From contig CP064962.1 in NCBI GenBank assembly GCA_016699145.1, positions 240,001 to 272,000 of the forward strand: a stretch of 32,000 bases of DNA, read 5' to 3'. The stretch is from Candidatus Saccharimonadota bacterium (GTDB taxonomy: Bacteria > Patescibacteriota > Gracilibacteria > UBA1369 > 2-02-FULL-48-14). Below the pieces are notes generated by a model that saw only the letters and a list, made by a program, of their open reading frames with translations, was not told where the DNA came from and searched no databases. Shown one piece after another: positions 1,932 through 32,000 of this stretch; positions within the stretch are counted from its first letter, which is position 1, and each line of letters begins with the position of its first letter. Position numbers and translations under genes: made by a program.

Positions 1932-2221
1932 AGGCTTGAATCTAAAATATTTTCGCAACCTTTTAGAAAGGAAATAATATTTTTAGGATTTAATCCTATT
2001 TTTGGTTTATTCAAAATCACTGCTTCAGTGAGATCATCTTTGGTGCGCAATTCAAGCGATGAATCGCGTCCATCAAAAACCAAACTGTATTCCCTACCTT
2101 TATATCTAACAAGAGAGTACCAACTTCCAAAAGAATTGGCATGATAGTGATGTTCAGTCGTTACAAACTGAATTTCCTTCATGCCAACTTCAACTTCAGA
2201 CATTAATTTAAAATGATCCAT
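1928..2221 (-). CDS. Hypothetical 97-aa protein, last gene of the island operon.
   Basis: ORF track. Its ATG (2219-2221) lies 1 nt after the upstream gene's TAA (2223-2225). Its stop (1928-1930) overlaps the stop of the glmS fragment. No family recognised. Confidence 0.5.
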   Translation of the reverse strand: MDHFKLMSEVEVGMKEIQFVTTEHHYHANSFGSWYSLVRYKGREYSLVFDGRDSSLELRTKDDLTEAVILNKPKIGLNPKNIISFLKGCENILDSSL

Positions 2222-2222
2222 T

Positions 2223-2719
2223 TTATTGCGTGTAGCGATCTTCGTAATAAAGCTCCCGAGTGTCGAGGTGGTATTCTATCGTGTAAACCTTCCAGGCATG
2301 CCCTCCTAAAAATTCAGAATGCACAAATTCATAACCATAGTCGGTTGGCCCCCAGATTGCCTCAGTTCCGAGCGCATCGACTGGGTCTACGTCAGGAACG
2401 TAGACTTTGATTGTAAAATGGAGTCAACCATGCCTTCTGCAGACATCTCGTCAAGGAAGCGGATGTCGTAATGAACACTAGAGCTTTGAAAGTTATAGTC
2501 AGATTCATTCCTTAACACGAGAATATTTTCAGGAATAGCAACATCCGCGATGCGTTCGACTTCATTGCCATCCACGGGGCCACCAAAAAATTCGAGTACA
2601 AGCGCAAGTACGACTATAAGTAAACTTGCTAGTATGTAGAGGAAAAATCCTGTTATGCACACTGCAACTCCACCTAAAAGCAAACGACCTAACAATAAAA
2701 CTGGTTTTTGAATATTCAT
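2223..2719 (-). CDS. Hypothetical N-terminally membrane-anchored protein, with its frame broken between 2390 and 2423.
   Basis: The 110-aa ORF 2387..2719 has a hydrophobic N-terminus (LLLGRLLLGGVAVCITGFFLYILASLLIVVLALVL). A second frame continues without any start codon as ...IKVYVPDVDPVDALGTEAIWGPTDYGYEFVHSEFLGGHAWKVYTIEYHLDTRELYYEDRYTQ-stop (TAA at 2223-2225). That continuation can only be the same gene. Confidence 0.45.
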
Positions 2720-2738
2720 AAGGCAATCTTATCAAAAT

Positions 2739-3776
2739 TCAATTCCTATCAAAAGGAAATCCCCCCTTCTCAACAGAAATCATTACACTGCGTAAAAGAG
2801 GGTTGTGAACAAGAAATTGGTGTAAACCGACCGTATCCATTTCAATTGCAACAGAATCGCCGGGGGAAAGACTCATGCGTTCAGTGATCCCTAGAATTTC
2901 GAAATCGAGTACTTCCTCAAGTTCATTTTTAACAGTGAGCATTTGGCCCACTTCGCTACGAGTCCACGTCTCACTGATAAAATCTTCCCGCACTAAAATG
3001 GTATTGGCGGGCACCTGTTCTCCACGCCCTAAGTGCCAGGCCTCCCAAAAGAAAAGTCCTACGACAAGAGTCGCAAGCATTATGTAAGGGAAAATACGAT
3101 TCAAACGTTGCCTTAAAAGTAAAGGCTTCTCACAAAACCATCCTAGCGGAAATCCATAGAAAAGATGCGCACCATAGGCAATGGCCAAGGCTTTGTAAGC
3201 TGTTCTTATGCCATAAATAGCTCCAAAAGGAGTCAAAACGGCTAAGGTTTCGAGGAGAAGACCCCACAGCACAGCCCACCCAATGGATTTATTTTTCATC
3301 ACTAAGGAGTAAATCCATGCAAAAGTGATCCCATTTGAGAAATGATAAAAAAGTCCTGTTAGATCACTCAAAACAGTACTGGACTGCACATTCAACAAAT
3401 ACATTCCGTAAGACTGAATAGGTGGGAAGGGATTAAAGCCGAAAAAATGCATGGGGATGCGCACCAAATCGTAGCCCAAGGTGCCCACAAATCCACCGAT
3501 CAATCCTAAGAACATTGCTTCGTGAATACTTTTTAAACCCTTCTTATAAGCCCAAAACCATAGCAAAGAAATGAGTAAGAGGCTGGGTAAAAGCACCCAT
3601 CGACCCAACACGTGCATGGGAGCAGCTCCATATAGAAATCCAAGTAAAGTAAAGATAGAACCAAAGCTCAAAAACCAAAGAGCAGCTCTTACTTGTAATT
3701 CTCTATTTTTAGAAACCAAGAATGATTTCATTGTCAGATTTGTTAGGATGTAATTTTTTTTGTTCCTTATATGCAT
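2739..3776 (-). CDS. Polytopic membrane protein with a C-terminal soluble beta-rich domain, function unknown.
   Basis: About 7 hydrophobic segments, then a ~90-aa tail (TILVREDF...LTVKNELEEVLDFEILG...GDSVAIEMDTVGLHQFLV) vaguely cupredoxin-like but without obvious Cu ligands. An AAGGA lies 7 nt before the ATG at 3776. An alternative ATG at 3731 would shorten the 68-nt overlap with the upstream gene. Confidence 0.55.
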   Translation of the reverse strand: MHIRNKKNYILTNLTMKSFLVSKNRELQVRAALWFLSFGSIFTLLGFLYGAAPMHVLGRWVLLPSLLLISLLWFWAYKKGLKSIHEAMFLGLIGGFVGTLGYDLVRIPMHFFGFNPFPPIQSYGMYLLNVQSSTVLSDLTGLFYHFSNGITFAWIYSLVMKNKSIGWAVLWGLLLETLAVLTPFGAIYGIRTAYKALAIAYGAHLFYGFPLGWFCEKPLLLRQRLNRIFPYIMLATLVVGLFFWEAWHLGRGEQVPANTILVREDFISETWTRSEVGQMLTVKNELEEVLDFEILGITERMSLSPGDSVAIEMDTVGLHQFLVHNPLLRSVMISVEKGGFPFDRN

Positions 3777-5118
3777 TTTCTAATCCTTTTAGAGTTTTTC
3801 CACCGGTGTTCCCGAAATGACCTGGATCATATTTATTACTCCAAGCTCCACCCCAGTCATCAAAACCATGTTGTTTGGCGATTTCACTGATTTTACGCCA
3901 CGTTCCATTGGGCAGTCTTTTGCCCGCATCATCAAACGTGATCACTTGCCCCTTATTATCAAAAGCAGAAACATCTATAGCACGTCCATAGTTATGCCAA
4001 CTTTTTCCACCTTTAGCGTTCGTTGCTTTTGAGTTAGTCTTCCGAATTTCATCTTGCTGATTCATAGTACGAAAATGTCCATCAGAATTAACACGCAGTC
4101 TAATTCCCATATCTTTTTCTACATGATTAATAAAATCAATGCCATTTTGTATGACGTCTGGATGACAGTCTTTTAAGCGGTCAACATTACGAGGATCCCA
4201 AGTAGAAGAAGGTCCCCAAGGATCATTTCCAATGCTTTTAGCTTTTGCTGCTACACCAGCCCCAAAAGCTCCAAAGGTACAAAAGAGACTAGGGTTTAAG
4301 CCGGTTTCCAATAAATCTAAAAATCCATCACTCATTAACCATTTTCCAAAAGAACCACCCGCCTCACTCCAACCACCATCATCAGCAGAAACATAATGCG
4401 CATCTAAAAGGGAAATAAACACCACTCCATTTATAGCCCAAAAAAATAGATGAGCTACACGAGAGTTATTTTTCTTAAAAAAGAACATGCTGGCAGCACC
4501 TACTAAAGCGAAGCCCAAGAGCCATTTCAATGGGACGAAAGCACTCACTATTAAAGTGATACCAAATATGAAAATCAAAATTTTTGTGAACGACTTTGTG
4601 AGAAGTGTACTCTTATGAAAATACTTTAACATCTTATGAAGATTCCAAAACAAAAACCTTAATAGAAAGTCCCCGAAAAAATTCCCAATAACAAAGATGA
4701 TTGTTAGACCCAAAGTAAAACTAAAAGCTTGTCCTAAAAATTTGCCGATTAGTAATGAAGCACCAATGAACCCAAAGAGTAAGAAAAGTTTTTTTTGATC
4801 AAGTCGAAAAATCTCTCGAATGATCTCAAATGGAGTAGTTAGGAGTAGATGACAATATTTCTTCAAACCATAGTAAGAGATACTGTCCATTGTAGACCAA
4901 AACAAAAATCCAAATAAAAACCATACTAAATAGATCAAAAAAGAGGATTGATCAGTGGTAACATATTGACTCCAAGAATTATCAACCTGGTAATGGAATC
5001 CGTCTAACTTGAATGCTAATATGTAAGTATGGAATATCCAGCTACTGAAAAAAGTGATCCCCATTCGTAAAATGAAATGTTTTATGTTTTGTCTGAAAAA
5101 CAAATCCTTCAAATGCAT
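3709..5118 (-). CDS. Polytopic membrane domain (~7 TM) fused to a C-terminal M15/LAS-family zinc peptidoglycan peptidase (VanY/endolysin-like).
   Basis: The C-terminal ~140 aa contain SWHNYGRAIDV (H-x6-D, plus-strand 3973-3996) and YDPGHFGN (D-x-x-H, His codon at 3817-3819). This is the metal-ligand pattern of D-Ala-D-Ala carboxypeptidase / L-Ala-D-Glu peptidase folds. The N-terminal ~300 aa are strongly hydrophobic. ATG at 5116-5118 is preferred over TTG at 5124. Confidence 0.7.
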   Translation of the reverse strand: MHLKDLFFRQNIKHFILRMGITFFSSWIFHTYILAFKLDGFHYQVDNSWSQYVTTDQSSFLIYLVWFLFGFLFWSTMDSISYYGLKKYCHLLLTTPFEIIREIFRLDQKKLFLLFGFIGASLLIGKFLGQAFSFTLGLTIIFVIGNFFGDFLLRFLFWNLHKMLKYFHKSTLLTKSFTKILIFIFGITLIVSAFVPLKWLLGFALVGAASMFFFKKNNSRVAHLFFWAINGVVFISLLDAHYVSADDGGWSEAGGSFGKWLMSDGFLDLLETGLNPSLFCTFGAFGAGVAAKAKSIGNDPWGPSSTWDPRNVDRLKDCHPDVIQNGIDFINHVEKDMGIRLRVNSDGHFRTMNQQDEIRKTNSKATNAKGGKSWHNYGRAIDVSAFDNKGQVITFDDAGKRLPNGTWRKISEIAKQHGFDDWGGAWSNKYDPGHFGNTGGKTLKGLENAYKEQKKLHPNKSDNEIILGF

Positions 5119-5180
5119 AGTCAAAGATTAGAACATCTGATCTGGATTTTCAATCTTCAAGCCTTTAAACAACGGTCACC

Positions 5181-6080
5181 ATGCAAGACAAGATTCAAAG
5201 CATCGTTGATGCTATCAATCTTTGCTCAAGGAAGAAGCTCAATCTTTTAAATAGATGGCGGGTTCGGGCTATTTCGAAGAGGGTTTTACCAGCGGAAATA
5301 TATAGACATTACACTCGGAATAATCAATACCTTTCCGAACTTACTTGGATATATCAACTGAAACAAGCGTTTAAAACATCCCAGCCTTTACCAAGTAGTG
5401 CGACCATGTGGCACTATGTTAAACAAATTCTTTCCGAGACCATGCAGCTACATGCTCTGATGTTTTTGATTCAACTCACAATTGAAAATGAAGGGGTCAA
5501 AGAGGCTATGCCCTATGTTGAAAAATCTTCAAGTTATAGAGCTTACAGGCTGCTATTGGATTATTATGCAGGTGAGGCAGATTTAGAGCATTTTCTGCAC
5601 TTTTATAAAAAGGCTGAACCTAAAAAAAAGCAGAATAGGATTGGACTGATTAAGTGTAAATTTGTTTCACATTATTCTGATAAGTTTGGTGTCGACCTTG
5701 GGTTGAAGTTGTGTCAAAAAGCTCCTTTTAGCCAGACTCAGTTGTACTCGGCTCTGGCACCCCATTTCTCAAAAATAACTTACAAAGAAGCGAAGAAGTT
5801 GCTTAAGAGCATACTTCAAAAATACCCTCTTGTCCAAGAAATAGACCACTGTGAAGCTTGTTTTTTAACCATGGCTTTTAGTTCGGACAAGAATGCAGCG
5901 CATGCAAAGGACTTCGCAGAACTATTTCAGATAGTTACTGCCATTCCAAAGACAGCGAAAGCTGGTGATTTTCGATTGCGGGATTGTCTTTTACTCGACA
6001 TTGCAAGGAAGTGTGCAGGAAATGTGGAACAATCGATTCTTTGCAAAAAGGCTATTATAAATCCGAAGCTAAAAAATTAA
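5181..6080 (+). CDS. Hypothetical 299-aa, apparently all-helical cytoplasmic protein.
   Basis: ORF track. Divergent from the island operon across a 62-nt spacer. No TM segments and no recognised motifs. Confidence 0.5.
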   Translation: MQDKIQSIVDAINLCSRKKLNLLNRWRVRAISKRVLPAEIYRHYTRNNQYLSELTWIYQLKQAFKTSQPLPSSATMWHYVKQILSETMQLHALMFLIQLTIENEGVKEAMPYVEKSSSYRAYRLLLDYYAGEADLEHFLHFYKKAEPKKKQNRIGLIKCKFVSHYSDKFGVDLGLKLCQKAPFSQTQLYSALAPHFSKITYKEAKKLLKSILQKYPLVQEIDHCEACFLTMAFSSDKNAAHAKDFAELFQIVTAIPKTAKAGDFRLRDCLLLDIARKCAGNVEQSILCKKAIINPKLKN

Positions 6081-6907
6081 CGTATTTTTTTAAAGTTAAA
6101 AATCAGCCATCCTTTATCCAATGCATCGTTAGAATAATATGGGAATATACCTAAAGAGGAAGCGTCTGTTTTAGAACCGTCATTCAGTAATAAATGGTCT
6201 GATTGAATAAAATAATCTGAATAAGAAGTCAGTTCATACAAAGCCTGTATATTTTCTTCGAATAGATCACATTTGCGGCAAGAAACAGCCCGACCATTAT
6301 TGAAGAAACCAGCCAGACCTGCATTAGAACTGTAGAGGTACTGCAAAGTCAACTCGGGTTCTTCTTCAACTAAAAGAGTTTTGATGACGGACTCAATTTT
6401 CTTCCTATCGGATGGATGAGGTTCTCTGTAGATAAAAACTAAAGCCTTATCCAGTGAAATTGGATAGTAATGAAAAATATCAGGAATACCAATGTCGGTT
6501 GCCACCGAAAATCTATAACCTTGAATAGTGGACTCATTTATGGGCTGAAAATCAAACTCCTCAAAAGGATTTAATCCAGGTACAGAAAATTCATAATTTG
6601 ATATTATTTTCACAATTTCTTCCTTACTCAAATTTGTAATACCGAAGTTTACAGTATCAGTGCCTACATATTCATTCACTGCATCAAATCTGAGCTGAGC
6701 TCCCGCGACAAGATCAATACCCCACTTGTTGAACGTCTTATTACTTTCATCCAACTCCCAACCTTCTGGGTATGCAAGAGAAAAGCCATATTCCTCATTT
6801 TCATAAATCATCCAATTTGAATGGTTCACATAGGAATAAATTCCATAAGCCCCAGTGGTCACAATCACCACAATAAGTAAAACAACTTCTCTTGGTCTCA
6901 TATCCAC
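6077..6907 (-). CDS. Hypothetical membrane-anchored or secreted protein.
   Basis: N-terminal anchor VVLLIVVIVTTGAYGIYSYV, followed by the WMIYENEEYGFSLAYPEGWELDE pattern common in uncharacterised extracytoplasmic proteins. Shares a TTAA double stop with the 5181..6080 gene. Confidence 0.55.
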   Translation of the reverse strand: MDMRPREVVLLIVVIVTTGAYGIYSYVNHSNWMIYENEEYGFSLAYPEGWELDESNKTFNKWGIDLVAGAQLRFDAVNEYVGTDTVNFGITNLSKEEIVKIISNYEFSVPGLNPFEEFDFQPINESTIQGYRFSVATDIGIPDIFHYYPISLDKALVFIYREPHPSDRKKIESVIKTLLVEEEPELTLQYLYSSNAGLAGFFNNGRAVSCRKCDLFEENIQALYELTSYSDYFIQSDHLLLNDGSKTDASSLGIFPYYSNDALDKGWLIFNFKKIR

Positions 6908-6944
6908 ATTTTAGCACAAATGGAATTTCGGTCTAATCCTCCTC

Positions 6945-6973
6945 TTGCAAAAAAGCCACCTCCCTATCATAAT
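6945..6973 (+). promoter_or_regulatory. Sigma70-like promoter candidate for the surface-protein gene.
   Basis: TTGCAA (6945-6950), a 17-nt spacer, then CATAAT (6968-6973). This favours the ATG at 6996 (MRRALLALLSL...) as the start codon. Confidence 0.35.
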
Positions 6974-6995
6974 GCAGCCACCTATTCTGCCCTCC

Positions 6996-8225
6996 ATGCG
7001 CCGCGCCCTTCTCGCTCTTTTGAGCCTGGTCTTATTTTCTTCCACTGCTTTTGCAGCCGGAGACCTTTCCTTGAACGCTTCCAGTTTGCAACTCAGTGCC
7101 GATTCTTGCCTGGAAGGGCACAGCATTCGCATTTGGGTGTCAGTGAGCAACAACAGCACAGAAGACCTGCTGGGTTCCGTGCGCTTCACCGCAAACGGGG
7201 TACAAGTGGGCTCGGATCAAGGAGTTTCCGCCCTTGCAGGGAAAAGTGATGAAGTTTTTTTGAACTGGACCCCTCCAAGCTATGGTACCTTCACCCTCAC
7301 AGCCAATCTCAGCCCCTGGGAAAATGCAGGTGACGATCCTTCCAACAACAGCGTTTCCAAACAAGTGACCGTAGGCCAAGACACCGACCGCGATGGAGTC
7401 GCCAACAGCAGCGACAGCGATGACGATAACGATGGCACCCCCGACAGCGACGATGTTTTCCCAACCAATCGAAACGAAAACAAAGACAGTGACGGAGACG
7501 GCCAAGGCAACAGCGCCGACACAGACGATGACAACGACGGCACCTCCGACACAGAGGATCACTTGCCGGAAGATTCCCGCTACACCAAAGACCAAGATGG
7601 AGACAGCATTCCCAATGAATTGGATGAAGACATCGATGGAGACCAAGTTTCAAACGAAGAAGAAACCGCCCAAGGCACCATCACAACAGAAGCCGACAGC
7701 GACAAAGATCTGGTACTGGATGGCATAGACCTCTTCCCTCTTGATGAAACCGAATGGGCAGACCTCGATGCAGACGGCATCGGCGACAACAGCGATCCCG
7801 ACATCGACAACGATGGAATTTTAAACGAAACCGATCCCGATCCCAGCAATCCCGCACCTGAAGCAGCAGTGAACGATTCAGTCATCCTCACAAGTTTAGA
7901 TGAAGAAGTGACCTTCGACGCCAGCGCCTCCATGGACAACAATGAAATTGTAAAATACACCTGGACCTTTGGAGAGGAGGTGGTGGAAGGCAAAACGGTG
8001 ACCCATCGCTTTGAACAAAAAGGCGCTCAAGTGGCCACTCTCACCGTGTACGATGCCGAAGGACAATCGGACACTCTGGAAGTTAAAGTGCATGTTTTTG
8101 GACAAAATTTCCTCGTCAAAGCCATTGCCTTCAGCCTCGTCTTACTTTTACTTGCGTTCTACCTTATCTATCGCTATAATCGGCGGGCTTCTGGGGAAAA
8201 ACCCAAGAAAAACGCTAAAAAATAG
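6996..8225 (+). CDS. Secreted surface protein: signal peptide, CARDB-like domain, Asp-rich thrombospondin-type-3-like Ca-binding repeats, PKD-like domain, C-terminal TM anchor.
   Basis: MRRALLALLSLVLFSSTAFA signal. Repeats DTDRDGVANSSDSDDDNDGTPDSDD / DSDGDGQGNSADTDDDNDGTSDTED (about 7380-7850). VKYTWTFGEE...ATLTVYDAEGQSDTLEVKVHV (PKD-like, about 7870-8095). LVKAIAFSLVLLLLAFYLIY plus a Lys-rich tail. Confidence 0.75.
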   Translation: MRRALLALLSLVLFSSTAFAAGDLSLNASSLQLSADSCLEGHSIRIWVSVSNNSTEDLLGSVRFTANGVQVGSDQGVSALAGKSDEVFLNWTPPSYGTFTLTANLSPWENAGDDPSNNSVSKQVTVGQDTDRDGVANSSDSDDDNDGTPDSDDVFPTNRNENKDSDGDGQGNSADTDDDNDGTSDTEDHLPEDSRYTKDQDGDSIPNELDEDIDGDQVSNEEETAQGTITTEADSDKDLVLDGIDLFPLDETEWADLDADGIGDNSDPDIDNDGILNETDPDPSNPAPEAAVNDSVILTSLDEEVTFDASASMDNNEIVKYTWTFGEEVVEGKTVTHRFEQKGAQVATLTVYDAEGQSDTLEVKVHVFGQNFLVKAIAFSLVLLLLAFYLIYRYNRRASGEKPKKNAKK

Positions 8226-16953: not shown

Positions 16954-19900
16954 ATGGCGCATCCTTTACCTCTTAAAAAAAGCTTCGCAGCCCTATTCGG
17001 CTTCATGGTTCTTTTCACGACCGTCGGGCCTCGTGGACTGAGCCTCACCATTCCCACTGTGAAAGCAGCGACCTTCACGGTGAGCAACCTTGACGACGCA
17101 GGGGCAGGATCTTTACGCCAAGCCATCACAGACGCAAACGCCAGCCCTGGTGAAGACCTCATCAGTTTCAGCGTAGCCGGCAGCATCACCCTGCTTTCAG
17201 ACTTGCCCATCATCAGCGACTCGGTAACGGTCGATGCCACGACCACCGTTCAAGCTGGACCCAACATTGTCTTAAATGCCACAGGAAGAACTCAAGGACT
17301 CGGGGTTTCTGGAGGAACTTCCACACAAATCAAAGGGATAGGAGTCAGTGGAGGAGATAATTGCATCGGCGTCTACGGCGGCTCTGGCATTGAAATTGGA
17401 GAAGCCACGGCTGAAGGAGGAATAGAAGTGGACGGTTGCACCAACGGAATCCATCTTGGAAACGGCAGCGACATCACTATCATCAATACTTCTGTAGGAA
17501 CCAATACCGCAAACACCGGCAACGGAATCAATATGTCCAACCCCACCGACGTGGTGGTGGGAGGAACCAGCGAAAGTGAACGTGTGGTGGTTTCTGGCAA
17601 CGATCAAAATGGAATTTACATGGTGAACGCCGACAACGTGACCATTCGAGGAAGCTACATTGGACTCCATGAAGATGGGGTCACCGACCAAGGCAACGAT
17701 CAAATGGGAATTTACGTGGACACGGGTTGCACCGGCATTGTGATTGGAGAAGGCACGCTTTCAACACGAAACATCATTTCTGGGAACGGACAAGACGGAA
17801 TCAAAGTCGATTCCGATGGAACAATCATTCAAGGAAACTATATAGGTCTCAATGCAGCAGCCAGCGCGGTCGTACAAAACGGCGGCTCAGGAATTCTGCT
17901 CAGTTCTAACATCAATACCGTGGGTGGAAGCACCAACGGAGAAGGCAACGTGATTTCCGGCAACAACGAATCGGGAGTTTCGATTGAAGCCTCCGGCAGC
18001 ACCCTCATGGGCAACTGCATTGGAACCGACGGCAACTGCGACGAAGACGCCGCTTTCATCAACATGGATGATGCGATTTTGATCGAATCCACTGCCAGCG
18101 ACAACATTATAGGAGCGGATGGCGACAACGAAGCCAACACCCTCCACCAAAGAATGCCTGGAAATTTTGCCGTTCACGTTTTGAATACGGCTGGAGATGA
18201 CAATCGTTTCAGCAAAAACAACTACCTCGATCTGAGTGCCGGGGAAGCCTTCACCGAAGTTGCCGCACCTGCGAACAGCAACATTGAAGACCCTGTGCTC
18301 ACTTCTGTGATTCAAGATTCCAGCTCCACCGTTACGCTCACTGGAACCACCGGCAGTGGCTTCCGCGTGGATGTGTATGCCGATGGACTGTGGGTCGATA
18401 CGGGAACAGCCACAGGGGACGGTGCTTTTGACCTCACCGTGGACAGCACATCTGATCGCTTCACCGTTATAGCAACAAATACAACAGGAGGCTCTTCTGG
18501 AACCCCTGCCATTGTCACGGCAAGCCCCGATGTCACTGCCCCAGCTGCCCCCACCGCCAGTCCCAGTCAAAGCACGGCCCTGCCCGGCAGCATCGTGAGC
18601 ATTTCTGGAACTGGTGAAGAAGGGGCCAAAGTCTATTCCAATGGAGCAGACACCGAAGCAGCTGTGGATGAATTTGGCAATTTTGAATTCGACGTGACGG
18701 TTTTGGCTGGAAACAATTCTTTTGAAATAACCCTGGTGGACGGCATGGAAAACGTGTCTGAAGCCGTAACGGTCAGCATTTTGGGCCGAAGCAGCGGGGG
18801 CGCTGCCACCAGCGGCGGAGCTTCAAACGGAGGCAACTCTTCCAGTAATGAAGACGCCGAGGAACCCGAGGAATCCGAGGAACCCGAAACTGGAAACATC
18901 GTAGACCCCGACAGCCAAATCATCATCGATACCGATGGAGCTCCTGACAATTCCAGCAGCATGGCTGGGGATGAAGAAGTCGTGGAAGAAACAGAAGAAA
19001 ACCCTGCTTCTAACCCCGCCGAAGAAAATCCAATGAATTCGGAAACCCCCAGTGCTCAAACAGAAAGCTCCAAGCCCGTCAAAAACTTCATAGAAGAATT
19101 CTACTACGAAGTCGTTGAACCTGTTAAAATCAAAAACATCCGCGACAGCTTGCCTCAAGATCCGCTCATCGAAGCCGCTTTCACCGCTGAATTCGATCCT
19201 CTCAACTACTTGGAATGGGAATTGGCCAACAGGGGCCTCACGCTTGATCAAGTGAACCAAGATAACGACGGAGATGGACTCACCAACGGCGAAGAAATTC
19301 AATACGGAAGCAACCCCCTGGTCACCGACACCGATGAGGACGGGGAAGACGATATTCACGAAATCTTCGTGAAAGGAACCGATCCTGCGCATTACGATTC
19401 AGACCATGACGGATTGGCCGACACTCTCGACGCCGAACCTCAAAACTTCAACACTTTTGAAAACCGCGTGAGCGAGGAAGAAATCAGCGCTCATGTCACC
19501 GAAGAAGGAATCAGCACTCCCCTAGGGATGACCGACTCCGATGAAGACGGTTTAGCAGATTTGTTTGAACTCTACCTGAGCACCGATCCCTTGCAAAAAG
19601 ACAGCGACGACGACGGTCTGAGCGACGGAGACGAATGGACTCAATATGGAACCGATCCCAATAAAGCCACCAGTGCTTTCCAAGTGGGAGGACTGCGCAT
19701 CGTCAATGCTTTGAACAACGAAGTCATGGTGGAAGGACAACAGTTCTACATGGGACAAGGCCCAGCTGAAACCCAAATCACTTTCTTTGAAATGCTGAGT
19801 GGTGGAACTTTAGTGCCCCTTGGGGAAACCGAAACGGATGAAGCTGGTCGTTTCAACCTGCTCACCCAAGAAAAATTGAGCCCCGGAAAACACACTCTCA

Positions 19901-20379
19901 TTGCCCTTGCAGGCACTCAAGAACGCCCCTTGGACTTTTCAAACCCCTTCCATGTGGAAGTGGTGAAATACACGGGCAAACCCGACTACATCAGTTTGAA
20001 CCTTCAAAATGGATCCAATCTCACTGAACGTCGACCCACGCTCGATTTGCGAGCCACCGACAATTACATGATTGTGGTTTCATGGAGGAGCACCATCTAC
20101 AGTCAAGTTTTGATTGCAGACAGTGCGGATCAAACAGTCTACGCAAAGCCCATGGAGAACTTGGAATGGGGCGAACACACCGTCAGTTGGTATGCCGTTG
20201 ACCCCAGCGACAATCAAAAAAGCGAAGCCACACAATTGTCCTTCACAGTGACGAATGCCGCCTTCTTGAACGGAACCAATGGAGCTCAAATGGGCCTCAT
20301 TGTGCTCGGAAGTATTGCGGTGCTGGCCATCTTGAGTACCCTGGGCCTCTCCTTGCGAAAACCCAAAAAGAGGAATTAG
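16954..20379 (+). CDS. 1141-aa secreted surface protein: CSLREA-like/parallel beta-helix region, Ig-like domains, acidic linker, thrombospondin-type-3-like Ca-binding repeats, C-terminal TM anchor.
   Basis: Signal-like N-terminus. TFTVSNLDDAGAGSLRQAITDANASPGEDLISF, then periodic G-x-x-I-x-G-N repeats (17070-18250). Ig-like segments 18280-18790 and 19680-20250. DNDGDGLTNGEE...DTDEDGEDD...DSDHDGLADTLD...DSDEDGLADLFE...DSDDDGLSDGDE (19258-19670). MGLIVLGSIAVLAILSTLGLSLRKPKKRN. Confidence 0.75.
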   Translation: MAHPLPLKKSFAALFGFMVLFTTVGPRGLSLTIPTVKAATFTVSNLDDAGAGSLRQAITDANASPGEDLISFSVAGSITLLSDLPIISDSVTVDATTTVQAGPNIVLNATGRTQGLGVSGGTSTQIKGIGVSGGDNCIGVYGGSGIEIGEATAEGGIEVDGCTNGIHLGNGSDITIINTSVGTNTANTGNGINMSNPTDVVVGGTSESERVVVSGNDQNGIYMVNADNVTIRGSYIGLHEDGVTDQGNDQMGIYVDTGCTGIVIGEGTLSTRNIISGNGQDGIKVDSDGTIIQGNYIGLNAAASAVVQNGGSGILLSSNINTVGGSTNGEGNVISGNNESGVSIEASGSTLMGNCIGTDGNCDEDAAFINMDDAILIESTASDNIIGADGDNEANTLHQRMPGNFAVHVLNTAGDDNRFSKNNYLDLSAGEAFTEVAAPANSNIEDPVLTSVIQDSSSTVTLTGTTGSGFRVDVYADGLWVDTGTATGDGAFDLTVDSTSDRFTVIATNTTGGSSGTPAIVTASPDVTAPAAPTASPSQSTALPGSIVSISGTGEEGAKVYSNGADTEAAVDEFGNFEFDVTVLAGNNSFEITLVDGMENVSEAVTVSILGRSSGGAATSGGASNGGNSSSNEDAEEPEESEEPETGNIVDPDSQIIIDTDGAPDNSSSMAGDEEVVEETEENPASNPAEENPMNSETPSAQTESSKPVKNFIEEFYYEVVEPVKIKNIRDSLPQDPLIEAAFTAEFDPLNYLEWELANRGLTLDQVNQDNDGDGLTNGEEIQYGSNPLVTDTDEDGEDDIHEIFVKGTDPAHYDSDHDGLADTLDAEPQNFNTFENRVSEEEISAHVTEEGISTPLGMTDSDEDGLADLFELYLSTDPLQKDSDDDGLSDGDEWTQYGTDPNKATSAFQVGGLRIVNALNNEVMVEGQQFYMGQGPAETQITFFEMLSGGTLVPLGETETDEAGRFNLLTQEKLSPGKHTLIALAGTQERPLDFSNPFHVEVVKYTGKPDYISLNLQNGSNLTERRPTLDLRATDNYMIVVSWRSTIYSQVLIADSADQTVYAKPMENLEWGEHTVSWYAVDPSDNQKSEATQLSFTVTNAAFLNGTNGAQMGLIVLGSIAVLAILSTLGLSLRKPKKRN

Positions 20380-28065: not shown

Positions 28066-28695
28066 ATGCCACTCCTACCCCACTCAAACCTTGTCCGTCT
28101 TTTCATTCTACTCGCGATACTCGCGGGAACAGCCTTTGGGCTCTACATCCATTCCAAACCTGAACCTCTGGTCGGCGACATCCACACCCACGCCGACTTC
28201 AAAGTGTACCTAAACGGAACCGCTTATGACTTTGCCCAAGAAAAATACATGTCTGAAGAAGGCTCCCCACTCAGTCCCTTCGCCCACCTGCACGACGGGG
28301 ATGGAACGGTGATTCACAAACACATGAGTGGCATCACTCTCGGTGATTTTTTTGAATCCATTGGAATGAAGCTCAGCGAGACCTGCTTCACCTTAGACAA
28401 CGGCACCACCTACTGCAACGACGCGGAAAACACCCTAAAATTTTTCGTGAACGGAAAGTTGAACAAGAAATTTGATCAATATGAATTCGGCGATTTAGAT
28501 CGCCTGTTGCTCACTTATGGAGATGAAACAGAAGAAGAGCTCCAAATTCAAGTTCAAAGTGTGGGCGACAAAGCCTGCATTTATTCGGAACAATGCCCCG
28601 AACGAGGCACGCCTCCCGACGAAAGTTCTTGCACCGGCGCCACAGATGGCTGCCTACCCGCCCAAGCGCATACTCATGCGGAAAACGCAGGGTGA
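28066..28695 (+). CDS. Membrane-anchored extracytoplasmic protein with His clusters, unknown function.
   Basis: N-terminal TM LVRLFILLAILAGTAFGLYI, then IHTHADFKVYLNG...FAHLHDGDGTVIHKH...TLGDFFESIG...FFVNGK, and a Cys-rich tail. Confidence 0.55.
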   Translation: MPLLPHSNLVRLFILLAILAGTAFGLYIHSKPEPLVGDIHTHADFKVYLNGTAYDFAQEKYMSEEGSPLSPFAHLHDGDGTVIHKHMSGITLGDFFESIGMKLSETCFTLDNGTTYCNDAENTLKFFVNGKLNKKFDQYEFGDLDRLLLTYGDETEEELQIQVQSVGDKACIYSEQCPERGTPPDESSCTGATDGCLPAQAHTHAENAG

Positions 28696-28797: not shown

Positions 28798-31700
28798 ATG
28801 GCGTGGACTTCTAAACGTACGCTCGCGGCAAAAACTCTGCTCATTTTGGTGTTCGCGGGTCTGCTTTCTTATTTCGACAGCACTACCGATCTCAAACTGG
28901 GGCTCGACCTCAAAGGGGGAACTCAACTCGATTACTCCATCGACCTGAGTGAAGTGGCCCTTGCCGACCAAAAACAGCTGGTGGAAGGGGTGAAAGAGGT
29001 GATCCGCCGCCGCGTCGACAGCCTAGGGGTGGCTGAACCCAGCATTTATGATTCTAAAGTGGGAGATGAATTTCACGTGATTGTAGAATTGGCCGGTGTT
29101 CAAGATTTAGAAGAAGCCAAAGCCATCGTAGGGAAAACCATACAATTGGAATTCAGAGAAGAAGAGCCAAACCCGGACAACAGTAAGCAAGTGGCTTGGG
29201 CCAATGAAGCCGCTAAAAACTTCCTAAGCCAAGTGAATGCCGGTGAAAACTTTCAAAGCCTAGGAGAAAAAGAACGCAACGAAAACAAACAAAACGTGCA
29301 ATTCACAGCGCACACCGGCTCTAAAATAGAAGATTTGCCTGCCGACCTCCAAACGGCTATCGAAGGGAAAAGTGAAGGCAGTCTCGTGGGTCCCTTGGAT
29401 CTGACAGGAGCCTACACGGTGAACTCAACAGGAAATTTGAGTGCCTTCAGCGGAACCGGTCTCATCCAAGTGGGAGCACGTCACATGGAAACAGAAGAAA
29501 AAGAGATTCCAGAAACCGTCAGTGCTCGCCACATTTTAGTGAGCTGGAATGAAATCAATGAGGAGCAAACACGCAGTAAAGAAGAAGCCCTCGCCCGCAT
29601 TCAAGAAGTGCAAAACAAACTTGCAGAAGGGCAAAGTTTTGAAGAACTCGCCAAAGAATATTCTGAAGATCCTGGCAGCAAAGATAAAGGAGGCGACCTG
29701 GGAGCTTTTGGTCGTGGAGCCATGGTGGAAGCCTTTGAAGAAACGGCATTCAGCACCGAAGTGGGACAGATTTCTGAACCTATAGAAAGCGATTTTGGTT
29801 ACCACCTGATTCAAGTTTACGACAAACAAGAAGCCGCTACCGAAACAGTGGAGATCGAAAAAATAGATGTGAACAGCATCATCTGGAACACCACCGCCGA
29901 TCCTTGGAAAGAAGAAGCCGTCCTCACCGGGGAACATTTTGAACACGCAGACGTTCAATTCAACGGCTCTTATCAACCTTTTGTGAGCATCACCTTCGAT
30001 GAAGAAGGAGGTAAAATTTTTGAAGAACTCACAGGAAGAAACATCAATAAAAGCATTGCCATTTTCGTGGGTGGAGAACTGATTTCCGCTCCCACGGTTC
30101 AAGCTCAAATCAGCGGTGGACAAGCACAAATTTCAGGGAGTTTCACCATTGAAGAAGCTCAAGAACTGGCTCGTGATCTCAATACCGGAGCCATCCCTGC
30201 CCCCGTTGAACTGGTGGGACAACACAACATCAGCGCCACCCTTGGGGAAGAAGCGTTGAATCAAAGTTTACACGCAGGACTCATTGGTGTGCTCGTGCTG
30301 GCCCTCTTCATGATTCTCTACTACCGCTTGCCAGGACTCATCGCCTCTGTCGCTCTGGCCATCTATTCGGCCTTGCTCATCTTCGTGATCAAAAGCTCAG
30401 TCCCCGTACTGCTCTCCATCTTGGTCAGCCTGGGCATCTTCTCTTACCTCGTCTACCTCATCCTCAAGAGTCGTGATTCTTTAGGAGAAAAATGCATCGC
30501 CTTTGTAGTGGCTTGTTTTGGACTCTTCTTCCTGGCTTCCGTACTGGCTAGCCCCATCACCCTGACCTTAGCGGGCATCGCCGGGGTCGTGCTCTCTATT
30601 GGAATGGCCGTGGACGCGAACATCCTCATTTTCGAACGCATGAAAGAAGAACTCCGAGAAGGACGTACCTTACACAGTGCCATCGATGAAGGGTTCAAGC
30701 GAGCCTGGGAGTCCATCCGCGACTCCAACTTTTCTTCGCTCATCACTTGTGGCATTTTGTTCTACTTTGGCTCCTCCATCATTCGTGGTTTTGCAGCCAA
30801 CCTAGCGCTCGGTATTTTGGTTTCCATGTTCAGCGCCATTTTGCTCACACGCACCTTGTTGCTCTTCACTGCCGAAAGCGGCCTTTCTAAAAAAATGGGG
30901 CTCTGGGGCAGCAACATCAAAAAAGAACCCAAACCTTGGCCTATCATGAAGTTCTCTGGCCTTTGGACAGCTCTCTCTGGCCTGCTCGCCGTAGTGGCCA
31001 TTGTGGCCGTGCTGATTTTTGGAGTACGCCTCGGCCTCGATTTCACCGGTGGAACCAGCCTGGAAGTGAAACTCAATAACCCTGAAATAACCAAAGAAGA
31101 AGTGATCAGCGATGTGGAAGCAGTGGCCAGCGCTCTGGGCGAAGATTTGGGCTCCCCGCAAGTGCTTTCCAACGACGAAGGCCATTTCATCATTCGTCTC
31201 AAACACATCTCTGAAGAAGACCGTGTCGCCCTCATGAGCAAATTCAAAGAAAGCAGTCCCAATTTAGAGGAGATCCGTTTCACAACCGTAGGCCCTGTGA
31301 TCGGAGACACGCTCAAACAAAAAGCAGCTCTGGCCTTGGGACTCACTTCCATCATGATTGTGCTGTACATTGCCTTTGCCTTCCGACGCATCCCTAAAGA
31401 GGTCAGCCCTTGGCGCTTTGGGATGTCCGCTATTGTGGCCTTGATCCACGACGTGCTCATTGTTTTTGGCGTCTTCGTGGTGCTCGGGCATTATTACGGA
31501 GTAGAGATGGACGCCCTCTTCATCACGGCGCTGCTCACCATCATGGGATTCTCGGTGCACGACACCATTGTGGTTTTCGACCGTATTCGCGAGAATTTGC
31601 GTCACCGCAGTGAAAAAGAAACTTTGATGGAAACCGCGAACAAAGCCCTCAATCAAACACTGGCGCGTTCCATAAACACTTCCATTTCTACGCTCATCAC

Positions 31701-31851
31701 CATCGTGGCCATGCTCATTCTGGGCCCCGAAAGCATTCGCATGTTCCTACTCGCGCTGACCGTGGGTATTGTGGCCGGAACCTATTCCTCCATCTTCATT
31801 GCCAGCCCTCTCATGGTTTGGTGGAACAACTGGGCCGTCAAACGTCGATAA
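28798..31851 (+). CDS. secDF: Fused protein-export membrane protein SecD-SecF carrying an inserted parvulin-type peptidyl-prolyl isomerase module in the SecD periplasmic domain.
   Basis: SecD: LGLDLKGGTQL, RRRVDSLGVAEPSI, IVELAG, IAIFVGGELISAPTVQAQISGGQAQISGSF, NTGAIPAPVE, and a TM bundle with GMAVDANILIFERMKEE. SecF from about 30925: LGLDFTGGTSLEV, VGPVIGDTL, VHDTIVVFDRIREN, RSINTSISTL. Inserted rotamase: ARHILVSW...GGDLGAFGRGAMVEAFEE...GYHLIQV (29515-29830). Confidence 0.9.
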   Translation: MAWTSKRTLAAKTLLILVFAGLLSYFDSTTDLKLGLDLKGGTQLDYSIDLSEVALADQKQLVEGVKEVIRRRVDSLGVAEPSIYDSKVGDEFHVIVELAGVQDLEEAKAIVGKTIQLEFREEEPNPDNSKQVAWANEAAKNFLSQVNAGENFQSLGEKERNENKQNVQFTAHTGSKIEDLPADLQTAIEGKSEGSLVGPLDLTGAYTVNSTGNLSAFSGTGLIQVGARHMETEEKEIPETVSARHILVSWNEINEEQTRSKEEALARIQEVQNKLAEGQSFEELAKEYSEDPGSKDKGGDLGAFGRGAMVEAFEETAFSTEVGQISEPIESDFGYHLIQVYDKQEAATETVEIEKIDVNSIIWNTTADPWKEEAVLTGEHFEHADVQFNGSYQPFVSITFDEEGGKIFEELTGRNINKSIAIFVGGELISAPTVQAQISGGQAQISGSFTIEEAQELARDLNTGAIPAPVELVGQHNISATLGEEALNQSLHAGLIGVLVLALFMILYYRLPGLIASVALAIYSALLIFVIKSSVPVLLSILVSLGIFSYLVYLILKSRDSLGEKCIAFVVACFGLFFLASVLASPITLTLAGIAGVVLSIGMAVDANILIFERMKEELREGRTLHSAIDEGFKRAWESIRDSNFSSLITCGILFYFGSSIIRGFAANLALGILVSMFSAILLTRTLLLFTAESGLSKKMGLWGSNIKKEPKPWPIMKFSGLWTALSGLLAVVAIVAVLIFGVRLGLDFTGGTSLEVKLNNPEITKEEVISDVEAVASALGEDLGSPQVLSNDEGHFIIRLKHISEEDRVALMSKFKESSPNLEEIRFTTVGPVIGDTLKQKAALALGLTSIMIVLYIAFAFRRIPKEVSPWRFGMSAIVALIHDVLIVFGVFVVLGHYYGVEMDALFITALLTIMGFSVHDTIVVFDRIRENLRHRSEKETLMETANKALNQTLARSINTSISTLITIVAMLILGPESIRMFLLALTVGIVAGTYSSIFIASPLMVWWNNWAVKRR

Positions 31852-31889
31852 AAGCCATTGGGTGCAATAAAAACCTATGTTACACTAGG

Positions 31890-31918
31890 CCCCGCCAGAT
31901 TGGCGGGGCTTTCTCTTC
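31890..31918 (+). terminator. Rho-independent terminator after secDF.
   Basis: ccccgcca-gat-tggcgggg forms an 8-bp G/C-rich stem, followed by the T-rich ctttctctt. Confidence 0.55.
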
Positions 31919-31951: not shown

Positions 31952-32000
31952 GCACCCATAGCTCAACTGGATAGAGCACTGGTCTTCGGAACCAGGGGTT
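31952..32000 (+). tRNA. tRNA-Arg (anticodon UCG), 5' two-thirds only because it is truncated by the window end.
   Basis: GCACCCA acceptor arm, TA, D arm GCTC-AACTGGATA-GAGC, anticodon stem CTGGT/ACCAG with loop CT-TCG-GA. The T arm and 3' acceptor strand lie outside the window. Confidence 0.8.

What the first reader, a model, noticed from the sequence alone, without database searches (positions are those of the whole stretch)
29170..29830. Parvulin (PrsA/PpiC-type) foldase module embedded in the periplasmic P1 domain of a fused SecDF
ORF 28798..31851 (1017 aa) begins and ends as a textbook SecDF but is far longer than a plain SecD-SecF fusion should be. The extra sequence sits between the N-terminal P1 elements (IVELAGVQDLEEAKAIVGKTIQLEFRE) and the P1 base (IAIFVGGELISAPTVQAQISGGQAQISGSF). 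Bases 29515-29830 translate to VSARHILVSW..ALARIQEVQNKLAEGQSFEELAKEYSEDPGSKDKGGDLGAFGRGAMVEAFEETAFSTEVGQISEPIESDFGYHLIQVYDK. That is a complete parvulin rotamase signature with both conserved His contexts (HIL and GYHLI). Bases 29170-29510 look like a second, degenerate parvulin-like unit (AAKNFLSQVNAGENFQSLGE...LPADLQTAIEGKSEGSLVGPLDLTGAYTV), similar to the inactive parvulin domains of SurA and PpiD. P1 faces the outside of the membrane, so a prolyl isomerase/chaperone would be covalently placed on the proton-driven pulling device at the Sec exit. PrsA and PpiD are known to work at the translocon exit as separate proteins, so a covalent fusion would be Rosetta-stone evidence for that coupling. 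It would also be a compact solution for a reduced genome. I am not aware of a characterised SecDF with this architecture.
Basis: partly seen in the sequence, partly recalled or inferred. Interest (0 to 1): 0.75.

Follow-up and report, generated by a model that had tools for sequence, protein, structure and literature searches.

The report
SecDF translocon motor with built-in parvulins
This gene encodes the membrane protein-export helper SecDF with a pair of prolyl-isomerase (parvulin) domains inserted into its outward-facing domain. The fusion is real and turns up across the tiny-celled CPR/Patescibacteria bacteria, but I found no paper that describes it.

Summary
ORF 28798..31851 (+, 1017 aa) is an intact fused SecDF. 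About 250 residues are inserted between the P1 base and the P1 head.

- **Canonical parvulin.** Residues 233-344 match PPIC-type PPIase models (Rotamase_3, E 8e-34) and keep the catalytic-site equivalents H245, D291, L301, M309, F313 and H336.
- **Degenerate parvulin.** Residues 123-237 score below Pfam's threshold on their own. Profile-profile comparison (96.5%, E 7e-10; controls at most 4%) and relatives that still carry GGDLG/GYH motifs identify the stretch as a degenerate parvulin.
- **SecDF core.** The proton-relay residues are present (D606, D922, R957).
- **Not a misassembly.** At least 55 species-level genomes carry the same uninterrupted fused gene.
- **Spread.** SecD with one to three parvulin units occurs in Peribacteria/Peregrinibacteria, Uhr-/Falkow-/Buchananbacteria and Moranbacteria.

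No paper describing the covalent fusion was found. The nearest known systems are non-covalent: the PpiD-SecD contact, and the Mycoplasma Sec "dome" built from PrsA-like proteins.

The most likely function is a foldase/chaperone module tethered to the SecDF pulling head. This is inferred, not shown. I rate it a new variant of a known kind, of moderate interest.

The parts
28798..31851 (+). Complete fused secDF gene (1017 aa, TAA stop) carrying the tandem parvulin insertion
   Evidence: ORF list; Pfam and NCBIfam domain hits; AF2 model with mean pLDDT 87.1; best PDB fold matches are SecDF 5yhf/5xan/3aqp
28801..28878 (+). TM1 of SecD (aa 2-27)
   Evidence: Predicted helix 2-27; hydrophobic 19-residue window 1.83; position as in Thermus SecDF
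28879..29163 (+). P1 base, N-terminal part (aa 28-122; Pfam SecD_1st aa 63-122), ending in strand IQLEFRE that leads into the insertion
   Evidence: Pfam PF21760 E 2.1e-16; aligns to Tt SecDF 28-120
29164..29508 (+). Insertion unit 1 (aa 123-237): degenerate parvulin-like domain that lacks both catalytic His. It is the fastest-evolving part of the protein.
   Evidence: hhalign against the canonical parvulin profile 96.5%, E 7e-10, controls at most 4%. 16 of 35 orthologous segments hit Rotamase models, best 8e-16. P0103/P0110 keep GGDLG and GYH/GHE motifs here. Predicted alpha-alpha-beta-alpha-beta-beta order. Mean pairwise identity 0.31. Foldseek on the isolated model was inconclusive.
29509..29847 (+). 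Insertion unit 2 (aa 238-350): canonical PPIC/parvulin-type PPIase domain with H245, D291, L301, M309, F313 and H336
   Evidence: Rotamase_3 E 7.9e-34 and Rotamase E 1.8e-29. Best solved relatives are PrsA 6vj6 (E 2.6e-25) and SurA parvulin 2. Residue conservation: H245 in 62 of 65 sequences that have this domain, H336 in 64 of 65. pLDDT blocks mostly 92-96, range 72-96.
29848..29907 (+). Return linker (aa 351-370), predicted as a long beta-strand (347-364) leading into the P1 head; W370 is nearly invariant
   Evidence: DSSP of the AF2 model; linker length is constant at 20 aa in 62 of 67 aligned sequences
29908..30201 (+). P1 head subdomain (aa 371-468), essentially complete
   Evidence: PF22599 E 5.5e-30, profile positions 16-114 of 114; aligns to Tt SecDF from residue 159
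30238..30897 (+). SecD transmembrane bundle TM2-6 (aa 481-700), including D606, the equivalent of Thermus D340
   Evidence: SecD_SecF_C and MMPL hits; residue-level alignment to 3AQP; positions; D606 is invariant in 67 sequences
30898..31848 (+). SecF half (aa 701-1017): TM7, P4 domain and TM8-12, with D922 and R957 (equivalents of Thermus D637 and R671)
   Evidence: TIGR00966 SecF 327 bits against cut-off 160; alignment to 3AQP; positions
31887..31918 (+). Terminator-like 11-bp G+C-rich hairpin followed by a U-rich tail, 36 nt after the stop codon
   Evidence: RNA fold -21.3 kcal/mol, z = -3.4, 0 of 200 shuffles as stable. The simple consensus scan did not list it.

Best explanation
The gene encodes a functional proton-driven SecDF. 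Two parvulin-fold domains are grafted in tandem onto its extracytoplasmic P1 domain at the base-to-head junction: a degenerate, probably non-catalytic unit (aa 123-237), then a canonical, probably catalytic PPIC-type PPIase (aa 238-350). The architecture, its integrity and its conservation are shown here. The function is inferred. The pair rides on, or next to, the mobile P1 head that captures polypeptides emerging from SecYEG. It would act as a translocon-tethered foldase/chaperone that binds the emerging unfolded chain and catalyses prolyl cis-trans isomerisation as the chain is pulled out and released. That is the job done non-covalently by the PrsA lipoprotein in Firmicutes, by PpiD in Proteobacteria and by the PrsA-like Mdp proteins of the Mycoplasma Sec 'dome'. 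The degenerate first unit would serve as a peptide-binding or spacer module, as the inactive first parvulin does in SurA. The fusion is a lineage trait of CPR/Patescibacteria SecD, with 1-3 units depending on the clade.
For: The ORF is intact and the domain order is clear. The full-length AF2 model is confident across the insertion (mean pLDDT 87.1; blocks for aa 121-350 are 72-96), and its best fold matches are SecDF crystal structures. The insertion point is mapped on Thermus SecDF. The parvulin active-site equivalents are present in the window and conserved in the family: H245 62/65, H336 64/65, L301 63/65, F313 62/65, M309 51/65 (of the 65 aligned sequences that have this domain). The loop spacing 'SEDPGSKDKGGDLG' equals that of the active SurA parvulin 2; that comparison is from my own knowledge of the SurA sequence. 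The SecDF proton-relay residues D606, D922 and R957 are present. Conservation by region indicates selection on parvulin 2 (0.48 pairwise identity) and relaxed but fold-preserving evolution of unit 1 (0.31), against 0.64-0.69 for the SecDF core. Independent occurrences: 419 GTDB species genomes encode relatives. Of the 80 best, at least 55 give one uninterrupted tblastn match over about aa 1-1017. The same insertion site holds parvulins in Uhr-/Falkow-/Buchananbacteria (tandem) and Moranbacteria (single). [quoted passage not shown] In Mycoplasma, PrsA-like Mdp444 binds the SecDF head and base, and substrate density touches its active PPIC domain (10.1101/2025.04.25.650208).
Against: There is no biochemical or genetic evidence for any member. 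The tools returned no coordinates or PAE, so I could not tell whether the parvulin groove faces the SecY exit, whether the module is rigid or flexible relative to the head, or whether it hinders the head's swing between its crystal conformations (F and I forms). About 10 of 67 relatives have a remodelled catalytic loop (GGDLG lost, Met to Tyr), and 24 of 67 have Gly at the Cys/Asp position with Asp one residue earlier. Catalysis may therefore not be the selected function everywhere. The module lacks the SurA/PrsA-type N/C chaperone domain that carries much of the chaperone activity in PrsA and SurA (only parvulin models match). The fold search with unit 1 alone gave no significant hit.
Confidence: 0.7

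Rival explanations
1. The parvulins are catalysis-independent holdase or ratchet modules. They bind emerging chains to prevent back-sliding and extend the capture surface of the P1 head, as the inactive parvulin of PpiD or parvulin 1 of SurA is thought to do. Prolyl isomerisation would be irrelevant.
For: Unit 1 has lost both His residues in the Peribacteria-type proteins. About 10 of 67 relatives have a diverged catalytic loop in unit 2, and 24 of 67 have Gly at the Cys/Asp position. Class C relatives (P0074, P0080) keep only the degenerate unit. PpiD cooperates with SecD, and the JBC paper notes that a role for its parvulin domain has been questioned (PMC9643414).
Against: In the window protein and in most relatives the full set of active-site equivalents is retained over deep divergence (H245 62/65, H336 64/65). 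That is hard to explain without selection on the active site.
Confidence: 0.2
2. The insertion is mainly architectural. It would be a rigid spacer that lengthens or repositions the P1 head relative to the membrane, cell wall or S-layer of these small cells, or a docking site for another envelope component, with no direct role in substrate folding.
For: The copy number at this one site varies from 0 to 3 units among related SecDs. Long predicted beta-strands (214-237, 347-364) connect the units like a stalk. Unit 1 evolves fast (0.31 identity).
Against: A pure spacer would not need to keep parvulin active-site residues. The repeated recruitment of this one fold, which belongs to translocon-associated foldases elsewhere, argues for a substrate-related role.
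Confidence: 0.07
3. Assembly or annotation artefact: a prsA-like gene chimerically joined to secD, or a hidden frameshift or stop that separates two genes.
For: None found. NCBI names some partial copies 'peptidylprolyl isomerase', which shows only that automatic naming is confused by the fusion.
Against: The window has a single open frame with flanking SecD P1 elements on both sides of the insert. At least 55 independent species-level genomes give one uninterrupted full-length match. Hundreds of protein clusters from NCBI, JGI, ENA and Logan share the domain order.
Confidence: 0.01

Closest known systems
SecDF of Thermus thermophilus / Deinococcus radiodurans (PDB 3AQP, 5YHF, 5XAN, 5XAP, 5XAM)
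   Same: Fused 12-TM SecD-SecF with P1 (base plus head) and P4 domains. These are the best fold matches. The base and head align by sequence. The proton-relay Asp/Asp/Arg residues are conserved.
   Different: In Thermus, about 38 residues connect the base strand to the conserved part of the head. Here about 250 residues forming two parvulin-fold domains occupy that position. No solved SecDF contains a PPIase domain.
Mycoplasma pneumoniae Sec 'dome' complex (SecYEG-SecA-SecDF with PrsA-like Mdp444/Mdp436/Mdp489)
   Same: A parvulin/PPIC-domain foldase is held directly on the SecDF head and base at the translocon exit in a genome-reduced bacterium without a periplasm. Only one PPIC domain keeps catalytic residues; the others are degenerate. 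Substrate density contacts the active PPIC domain (also 10.1101/2024.09.05.611430).
   Different: That association is non-covalent. The Mdps are large lipoproteins with SurA-like helical domains that form a closed chamber. Here the parvulins are part of the SecD polypeptide, with no SurA-like domain and no evidence of a chamber.
PrsA lipoprotein foldase (Bacillus and other Firmicutes)
   Same: PrsA parvulin domains are the closest solved relatives of unit 2 (6vj6 E 2.6e-25; 6xd8, 1zk6, 4wo7). It is an extracytoplasmic, membrane-tethered foldase for Sec substrates in monoderm cells.
   Different: PrsA is a separate lipoprotein whose parvulin is inserted into an N/C chaperone domain and which dimerises. 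The NCBIfam PrsA models score far below their cut-offs here (99.5 against 361) and match only the parvulin region.
SurA (tandem parvulins: inactive P1, active P2)
   Same: The order is the same: a degenerate parvulin followed by a canonical one. The NCBIfam SurA model aligns across both units (aa 125-346 to profile positions 186-386). SurA parvulin 2 matches unit 2 (E 5.6e-17). The best non-trivial structural match of unit 1 alone is SurA (TM 0.52, not significant).
   Different: SurA is a soluble periplasmic chaperone of diderm bacteria whose N/C core domain is absent here. The score of 80 is far below the cut-off of 394.
PpiD-YfgM at the E. coli/Vibrio Sec translocon
   Same: [quoted passage not shown]
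   Different: PpiD is a separate protein with its own TM anchor and SurA-like domains. Here the anchor is SecD itself, and unit 2 keeps its catalytic residues.

Membership tests
SecDF (SecD/SecF protein-export membrane proteins, RND superfamily) | Two SecD_SecF_C transmembrane modules and Sec_GG motifs in one chain | tested here: met
   PF02355 E 4.1e-67 (2 stretches) and PF07549 E 8.9e-12 (2 stretches). TIGR01129 secD 384 bits against 244.4; TIGR00966 SecF 327 bits against 160.
SecDF (SecD/SecF protein-export membrane proteins, RND superfamily) | Periplasmic P1 domain with base and head subdomains | tested here: met
   PF21760 (aa 63-122) and PF22599 (aa 371-468); alignment to 3AQP and 3AQO P1; fold match with TM-score 0.68-0.73 normalised to SecDF targets
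SecDF (SecD/SecF protein-export membrane proteins, RND superfamily) | Proton-relay residues equivalent to Thermus D340, D637 and R671 | tested here: met
   D606, D922 and R957 by residue-level alignment to 3AQP
SecDF (SecD/SecF protein-export membrane proteins, RND superfamily) | Full-length NCBIfam SecDF equivalog/subfamily score above the curated cut-off | tested here: not met
   The best is NF009583, 621 bits against a cut-off of 721, matched in 3 stretches. The model is interrupted by the insertion. This bears on automatic naming, not on homology.
SecDF (SecD/SecF protein-export membrane proteins, RND superfamily) | PMF-dependent stimulation of Sec export | not testable with these tools
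   Needs genetics or biochemistry
Parvulin / PPIC-type PPIase (PF00639, PF13616) - unit 2, aa 238-350 | Match to family models above the gathering score | tested here: met
   Rotamase_3 117.1 bits against 22.5; Rotamase 103 bits against 21.7; Rotamase_2 44.7 bits against 27
Parvulin / PPIC-type PPIase (PF00639, PF13616) - unit 2, aa 238-350 | Active-site residues (Pin1 H59, C113/Asp, L122, M130, F134, H157 equivalents) | tested here: met
   H245, D291, L301, M309, F313 and H336 are present. The mapping to Pin1 numbering is by my own alignment of motifs.
Parvulin / PPIC-type PPIase (PF00639, PF13616) - unit 2, aa 238-350 | Measured prolyl cis-trans isomerase activity | not testable with these tools
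   Needs an enzyme assay
Parvulin fold - unit 1, aa 123-237 | Match to family models above the gathering score | tested here: not met
   Window sequence: Rotamase 16.5 bits against 21.7, E 0.017
Parvulin fold - unit 1, aa 123-237 | Profile-level homology to parvulins, specific against controls | tested here: met
   hhalign 96.5%, E 7e-10; controls at most 4%; 16 of 35 orthologous segments hit Rotamase models; transitional sequences P0103 and P0110
Parvulin fold - unit 1, aa 123-237 | Structural similarity of the predicted domain to solved parvulins | tested here: inconclusive
   Isolated model pLDDT 79.7. Foldseek found no hit at E <= 0.001; SurA was the best plausible match (TM 0.52, E 0.7).
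Parvulin fold - unit 1, aa 123-237 | Catalytic His pair | tested here: not met
   There is no HIL-type first strand and no GxH motif in the window sequence or in most Peribacteria-type relatives
PrsA foldase lipoprotein | Parvulin flanked by the PrsA N/C chaperone domain, an N-terminal lipobox, and a full-length model score above the cut-off | tested here: not met
   NF002846 99.5 bits against 361, aligned only over aa 225-361. The flanks are SecD P1 elements.
SurA | N-terminal and C-terminal chaperone core plus two parvulins, with a model score above the cut-off | tested here: not met
   NF008038 80.3 bits against 394; only the two-parvulin part aligns

The most novel reading that the evidence does not exclude
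The parvulin pair is a working part of the SecDF power stroke, not merely a tethered helper. The proton-driven swing of the P1 head would be mechanically coupled to capture and release of the chain by the parvulin groove. That would make this an energy-coupled extracytoplasmic foldase, a way to drive folding outside the membrane where there is no ATP. It would also be the ancestral, default Sec-exit design of the whole CPR radiation.
Probability: 0.15. Interest if true: 0.85.

Novelty: new variant of a known kind. Interest (0 to 1): 0.55.

Why it matters
How polypeptides leaving SecYEG are handed from the SecDF pulling device to extracytoplasmic foldases is still unsettled. The evidence so far is cross-linking of PpiD to SecD and low-resolution in-cell maps of the Mycoplasma dome. 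A natural single-chain SecDF-parvulin, conserved over a very large bacterial radiation, is independent evolutionary evidence that the two activities work together.

It also offers a compact, stoichiometrically defined object for cryo-EM, cross-linking and chimera experiments. In addition, it flags a systematic annotation problem. These proteins are named either 'peptidylprolyl isomerase' or 'SecD', and PrsA calls in CPR genome surveys may partly reflect the fusion.

Tried and rejected
- **Exact look-up of the window protein** in the contig collection found nothing on record, so the source contig could not be identified. The closest genome is a lake Peribacteria MAG at 74% identity.
- **Rfam and tRNA scans** of the window found nothing.
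- **Fold search against AFDB** (afdb50) was unavailable, so a UniProt-level taxonomic map by structure was not possible.
- **Fold search with the isolated unit 1 model** gave no significant hit. One strand seen in the full-length model did not form in isolation. I count this test as inconclusive and rely on profile evidence instead.
- **My first hhalign of the class B extra unit** was invalid, because the template alignment contained the same residues. I redid it with a class A-only template.
- **Cluster look-up for taxonomy** of single-parvulin representatives returned no names. A third homolog search resolved this instead: Moranbacteria.
- **Unit 1 as a SurA/PrsA-type helical chaperone domain** was considered and rejected. 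Only Rotamase models match it, and its predicted secondary structure is alpha/beta.
- **Misassembly** was considered and rejected.
- **The consensus terminator scan** missed the hairpin after the gene. Folding shows the hairpin.
- **Not achieved:** checking whether these genomes also have stand-alone PrsA/PpiD/SurA, and any geometric analysis, because no model coordinates or PAE were returned.
Full report
**1. What is in the sequence**

ORF 28798..31851 on the + strand is 1017 codons long. It starts with ATG, ends with TAA and has no internal stop. Pfam gives this order of domains:
- SecD_1st (P1 base, aa 63-122)
- Rotamase_3/Rotamase (aa 233-344; E 7.9e-34 and 1.8e-29)
- SecDF_P1_head (aa 371-468; E 5.5e-30)
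- the first SecD_SecF_C transmembrane module
- a Sec_GG motif, then the SecF-type module

NCBIfam agrees. TIGR01129 (SecD) and TIGR00966 (SecF) score above their cut-offs. The full-length SecDF models fall short because they are split into three stretches by the insert.

A residue-level alignment with Thermus thermophilus SecDF places query 27-125 on Tt 28-120 and query 375-536 on Tt 159-320. About 250 residues therefore stand where Thermus has about 38, right after the base strand that leads into the P1 head. The head itself matches positions 16-114 of the 114-position head model, so it is decorated rather than replaced.

**2. The canonical parvulin (aa 238-350)**

Its closest solved relatives are PrsA parvulin domains (6vj6, E 2.6e-25), SurA parvulin 2, archaeal and bacterial PpiC-type proteins, and Pin1.

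The residues that line the parvulin active site are all present: H245, D291, L301, M309, F313 and H336. I matched them to Pin1 H59, C113, L122, M130, F134 and H157 by motif alignment from my own knowledge of the Pin1 sequence.

In a 67-sequence family alignment (65 sequences have this domain), H245 is kept in 62, H336 in 64, L301 in 63 and F313 in 62.

There are two caveats at family level:
- About ten relatives have a remodelled loop in which GGDLG is lost and Met becomes Tyr.
- In 24 relatives the Cys/Asp position is Gly, with an Asp one residue earlier.

The window protein has the standard form.

**3. The upstream unit (aa 123-237)**

On its own the window sequence is sub-threshold for Pfam (Rotamase E 0.017, 16.5 bits against 21.7), although the alignment spans most of the model. 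Stronger evidence comes from three sources:
- A profile of this region from 64 relatives matches a profile of the canonical parvulin at 96.5% probability, E 7e-10. The two motif-retaining relatives were excluded from the profile. The same profile scores 4% or less against the P1 head, P1 base and P4.
- 16 of 35 orthologous segments hit Rotamase models individually, the best at 8e-16.
- Two relatives (P0103, P0110) still show GGDLG and GYH/GHE motifs at the aligned positions.

In the full-length model the region has parvulin-like secondary-structure order, preceded by the base strand IQLEFRE where a parvulin would have its first strand. It has lost both catalytic histidines.

A fold search with this unit modelled alone was not significant. 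SurA was the best sensible match at TM 0.52. I count that test as inconclusive.

The arrangement 'degenerate then canonical' is that of SurA, and the NCBIfam SurA model aligns across both units.

**4. The SecDF core looks functional**

The AF2 model of the whole protein is confident (mean pLDDT 87.1, no segment below 50). Its best structural matches are the SecDF crystal structures. The equivalents of Thermus D340, D637 and R671 are D606, D922 and R957, and D606 is invariant in the family.

**5. Not an artefact, and not rare**

A first homolog search with aa 1-560 returned more than 100 clusters (at 90% identity) with the same domain list. They are named Peregrinibacteria, Gracilibacteria or Patescibacteria.

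A scan of one genome per GTDB species found 419 genomes that encode a relative. The 80 best are nearly all Peribacteria/Peregrinibacteria. In at least 55 of them the whole 1017-residue query aligns in a single uninterrupted frame, so they too carry a fused SecDF with the insertion. The closest is 74% identical (L002, a lake Peribacteria MAG).

Two further searches extended the range:
- Uhrbacteria, Falkowbacteria, Buchananbacteria and other Parcubacteria have SecD with two recognisable parvulins.
- Moranbacteria have SecD with one.

Within the Peribacteria-type proteins there are three forms:
- degenerate plus canonical unit, as here
- a form with an additional truncated parvulin-like unit (95%, E 3e-8)
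- a form with the degenerate unit only (P0074, P0080)

The insertion site is always the same.

Region-by-region pairwise identity among 44 class A sequences:

| Region | Pairwise identity |
|---|---|
| P1 base | 0.69 |
| Unit 1 (degenerate parvulin) | 0.31 |
| Unit 2 (canonical parvulin) | 0.48 |
| P1 head | 0.64 |
| TM2-6 | 0.69 |

Unit 2 is under clear constraint. Unit 1 keeps its fold but little sequence.

**6. How it most likely works**

By homology with SecDF, P1 lies outside the membrane, and its head binds emerging unfolded chains and swings on the base. This is established knowledge of the family, from the Tsukazaki/Furukawa structures that appear as hits.

Mounting a substrate-binding, probably catalytic parvulin on the head's N-terminal edge puts a foldase at the point where the chain is pulled out and released.

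This is inferred. No activity was measured, and I had no coordinates to check orientation.

Precedents exist for the same partnership made non-covalently:
- In Mycoplasma pneumoniae the PrsA-like Mdp444 binds the SecDF head and base, and substrate density touches its one active PPIC domain. Its paralogues carry degenerate PPIC domains (10.1101/2025.04.25.650208; 10.1101/2024.09.05.611430).

The main rival is that the parvulins act as binding or ratchet modules without catalysis. The diverged loops in some relatives support that view, and the strong retention of active-site residues in most relatives argues against it.

**7. Known or new**

Seven full-text searches found no description of a SecD or SecDF with an embedded PPIase. 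The search library omits many subscription papers, so this is absence of evidence only.

The architecture is visible in precomputed Pfam annotations and has been in public databases since the 2015 groundwater CPR genomes (for example P0495, P0504, P0234). Automatic names waver between 'peptidylprolyl isomerase' and 'SecD'.

The protein is a true SecDF and carries a true parvulin. It is not a PrsA, SurA or PpiD, because it lacks their chaperone cores and scores far below their model cut-offs. I classify it as a new variant of a known kind: a lineage-wide covalent version of a coupling known elsewhere as a non-covalent complex.

**8. Verdict**

Interest is moderate (0.55). A Sec specialist would find it noteworthy and experimentally useful. 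It fits current models rather than overturning them, and every functional statement remains inference.

Noticed in passing
window 31953-32000: A tRNA-like sequence (gcacccatagctcaactggatagagcactggtcttcggaaccaggggtt) starts about 100 nt after secDF and is cut off by the window end. ARAGORN reported no tRNA, presumably because the sequence is truncated.
   Followed up: no
window 31887-31918: An 11-bp G+C-rich hairpin followed by a U-rich tail lies 36 nt after the secDF stop (-21.3 kcal/mol, z -3.4). It is a likely intrinsic terminator. The consensus scan did not list it.
   Followed up: partly
window 28066-28695 (+): A 209-aa ORF directly upstream of secDF has an N-terminal hydrophobic segment, many His/Cys/Asp residues and no Pfam match. 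It may be an extracytoplasmic metal-binding or redox protein, and may be co-transcribed with secDF.
   Followed up: no
window 2001-7000: G+C drops to 0.36-0.42 against about 0.47-0.54 elsewhere. The ORFs here mostly lack Pfam matches, apart from a VanY/M15-type peptidase (3709-5124, - strand). This may be an acquired island.
   Followed up: no
window 16954-20379 and 6945-8225 (+): Two large ORFs look like secreted or surface proteins. One is 1141 aa with bacterial TSP3 repeats. The other is 426 aa with PKD, TSP3 and CARDB matches. They are candidate clients of the Sec/foldase machinery.
   Followed up: no
related proteins: P0103, P0110, P0121-P0239 (tandem); P0322, P0361, P0390-P0506 (single); P0055, P0086, P0095 and others (triple); P0074, P0080 (degenerate only): The same P1 insertion site holds 0, 1, 2 or 3 parvulin-derived units, depending on the CPR lineage. 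Moranbacteria have one. Uhr-, Falkow- and Buchananbacteria have two recognisable units. Peribacteria have a degenerate unit plus a canonical one, sometimes with a truncated third unit.
   Followed up: partly
alignment A1, columns for window aa 284-316: About 10 of 67 relatives (for example P0007, P0010, P0012, P0017, P0036, P0039) have replaced the GGDLG...GxM loop of the canonical parvulin with GGxLxxPV...GxY. This suggests a subgroup in which catalysis is altered or lost.
   Followed up: partly
L012 (JBLIGW010000056.1, 6961-bp contig): A full-length copy of the fused gene sits in a MAG labelled Oceanicoccus sp. (a gammaproteobacterium). On such a short contig this is most likely binning contamination rather than transfer.
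   Followed up: no
P0326, P0332, P0379, P0351, P0371 (representative library): These proteins of 700-1040 aa appear to consist of 4-7 tandem parvulin units, with no SecD base or head detected by my local HMMs. This is an unexplained multi-parvulin architecture.
   Followed up: no
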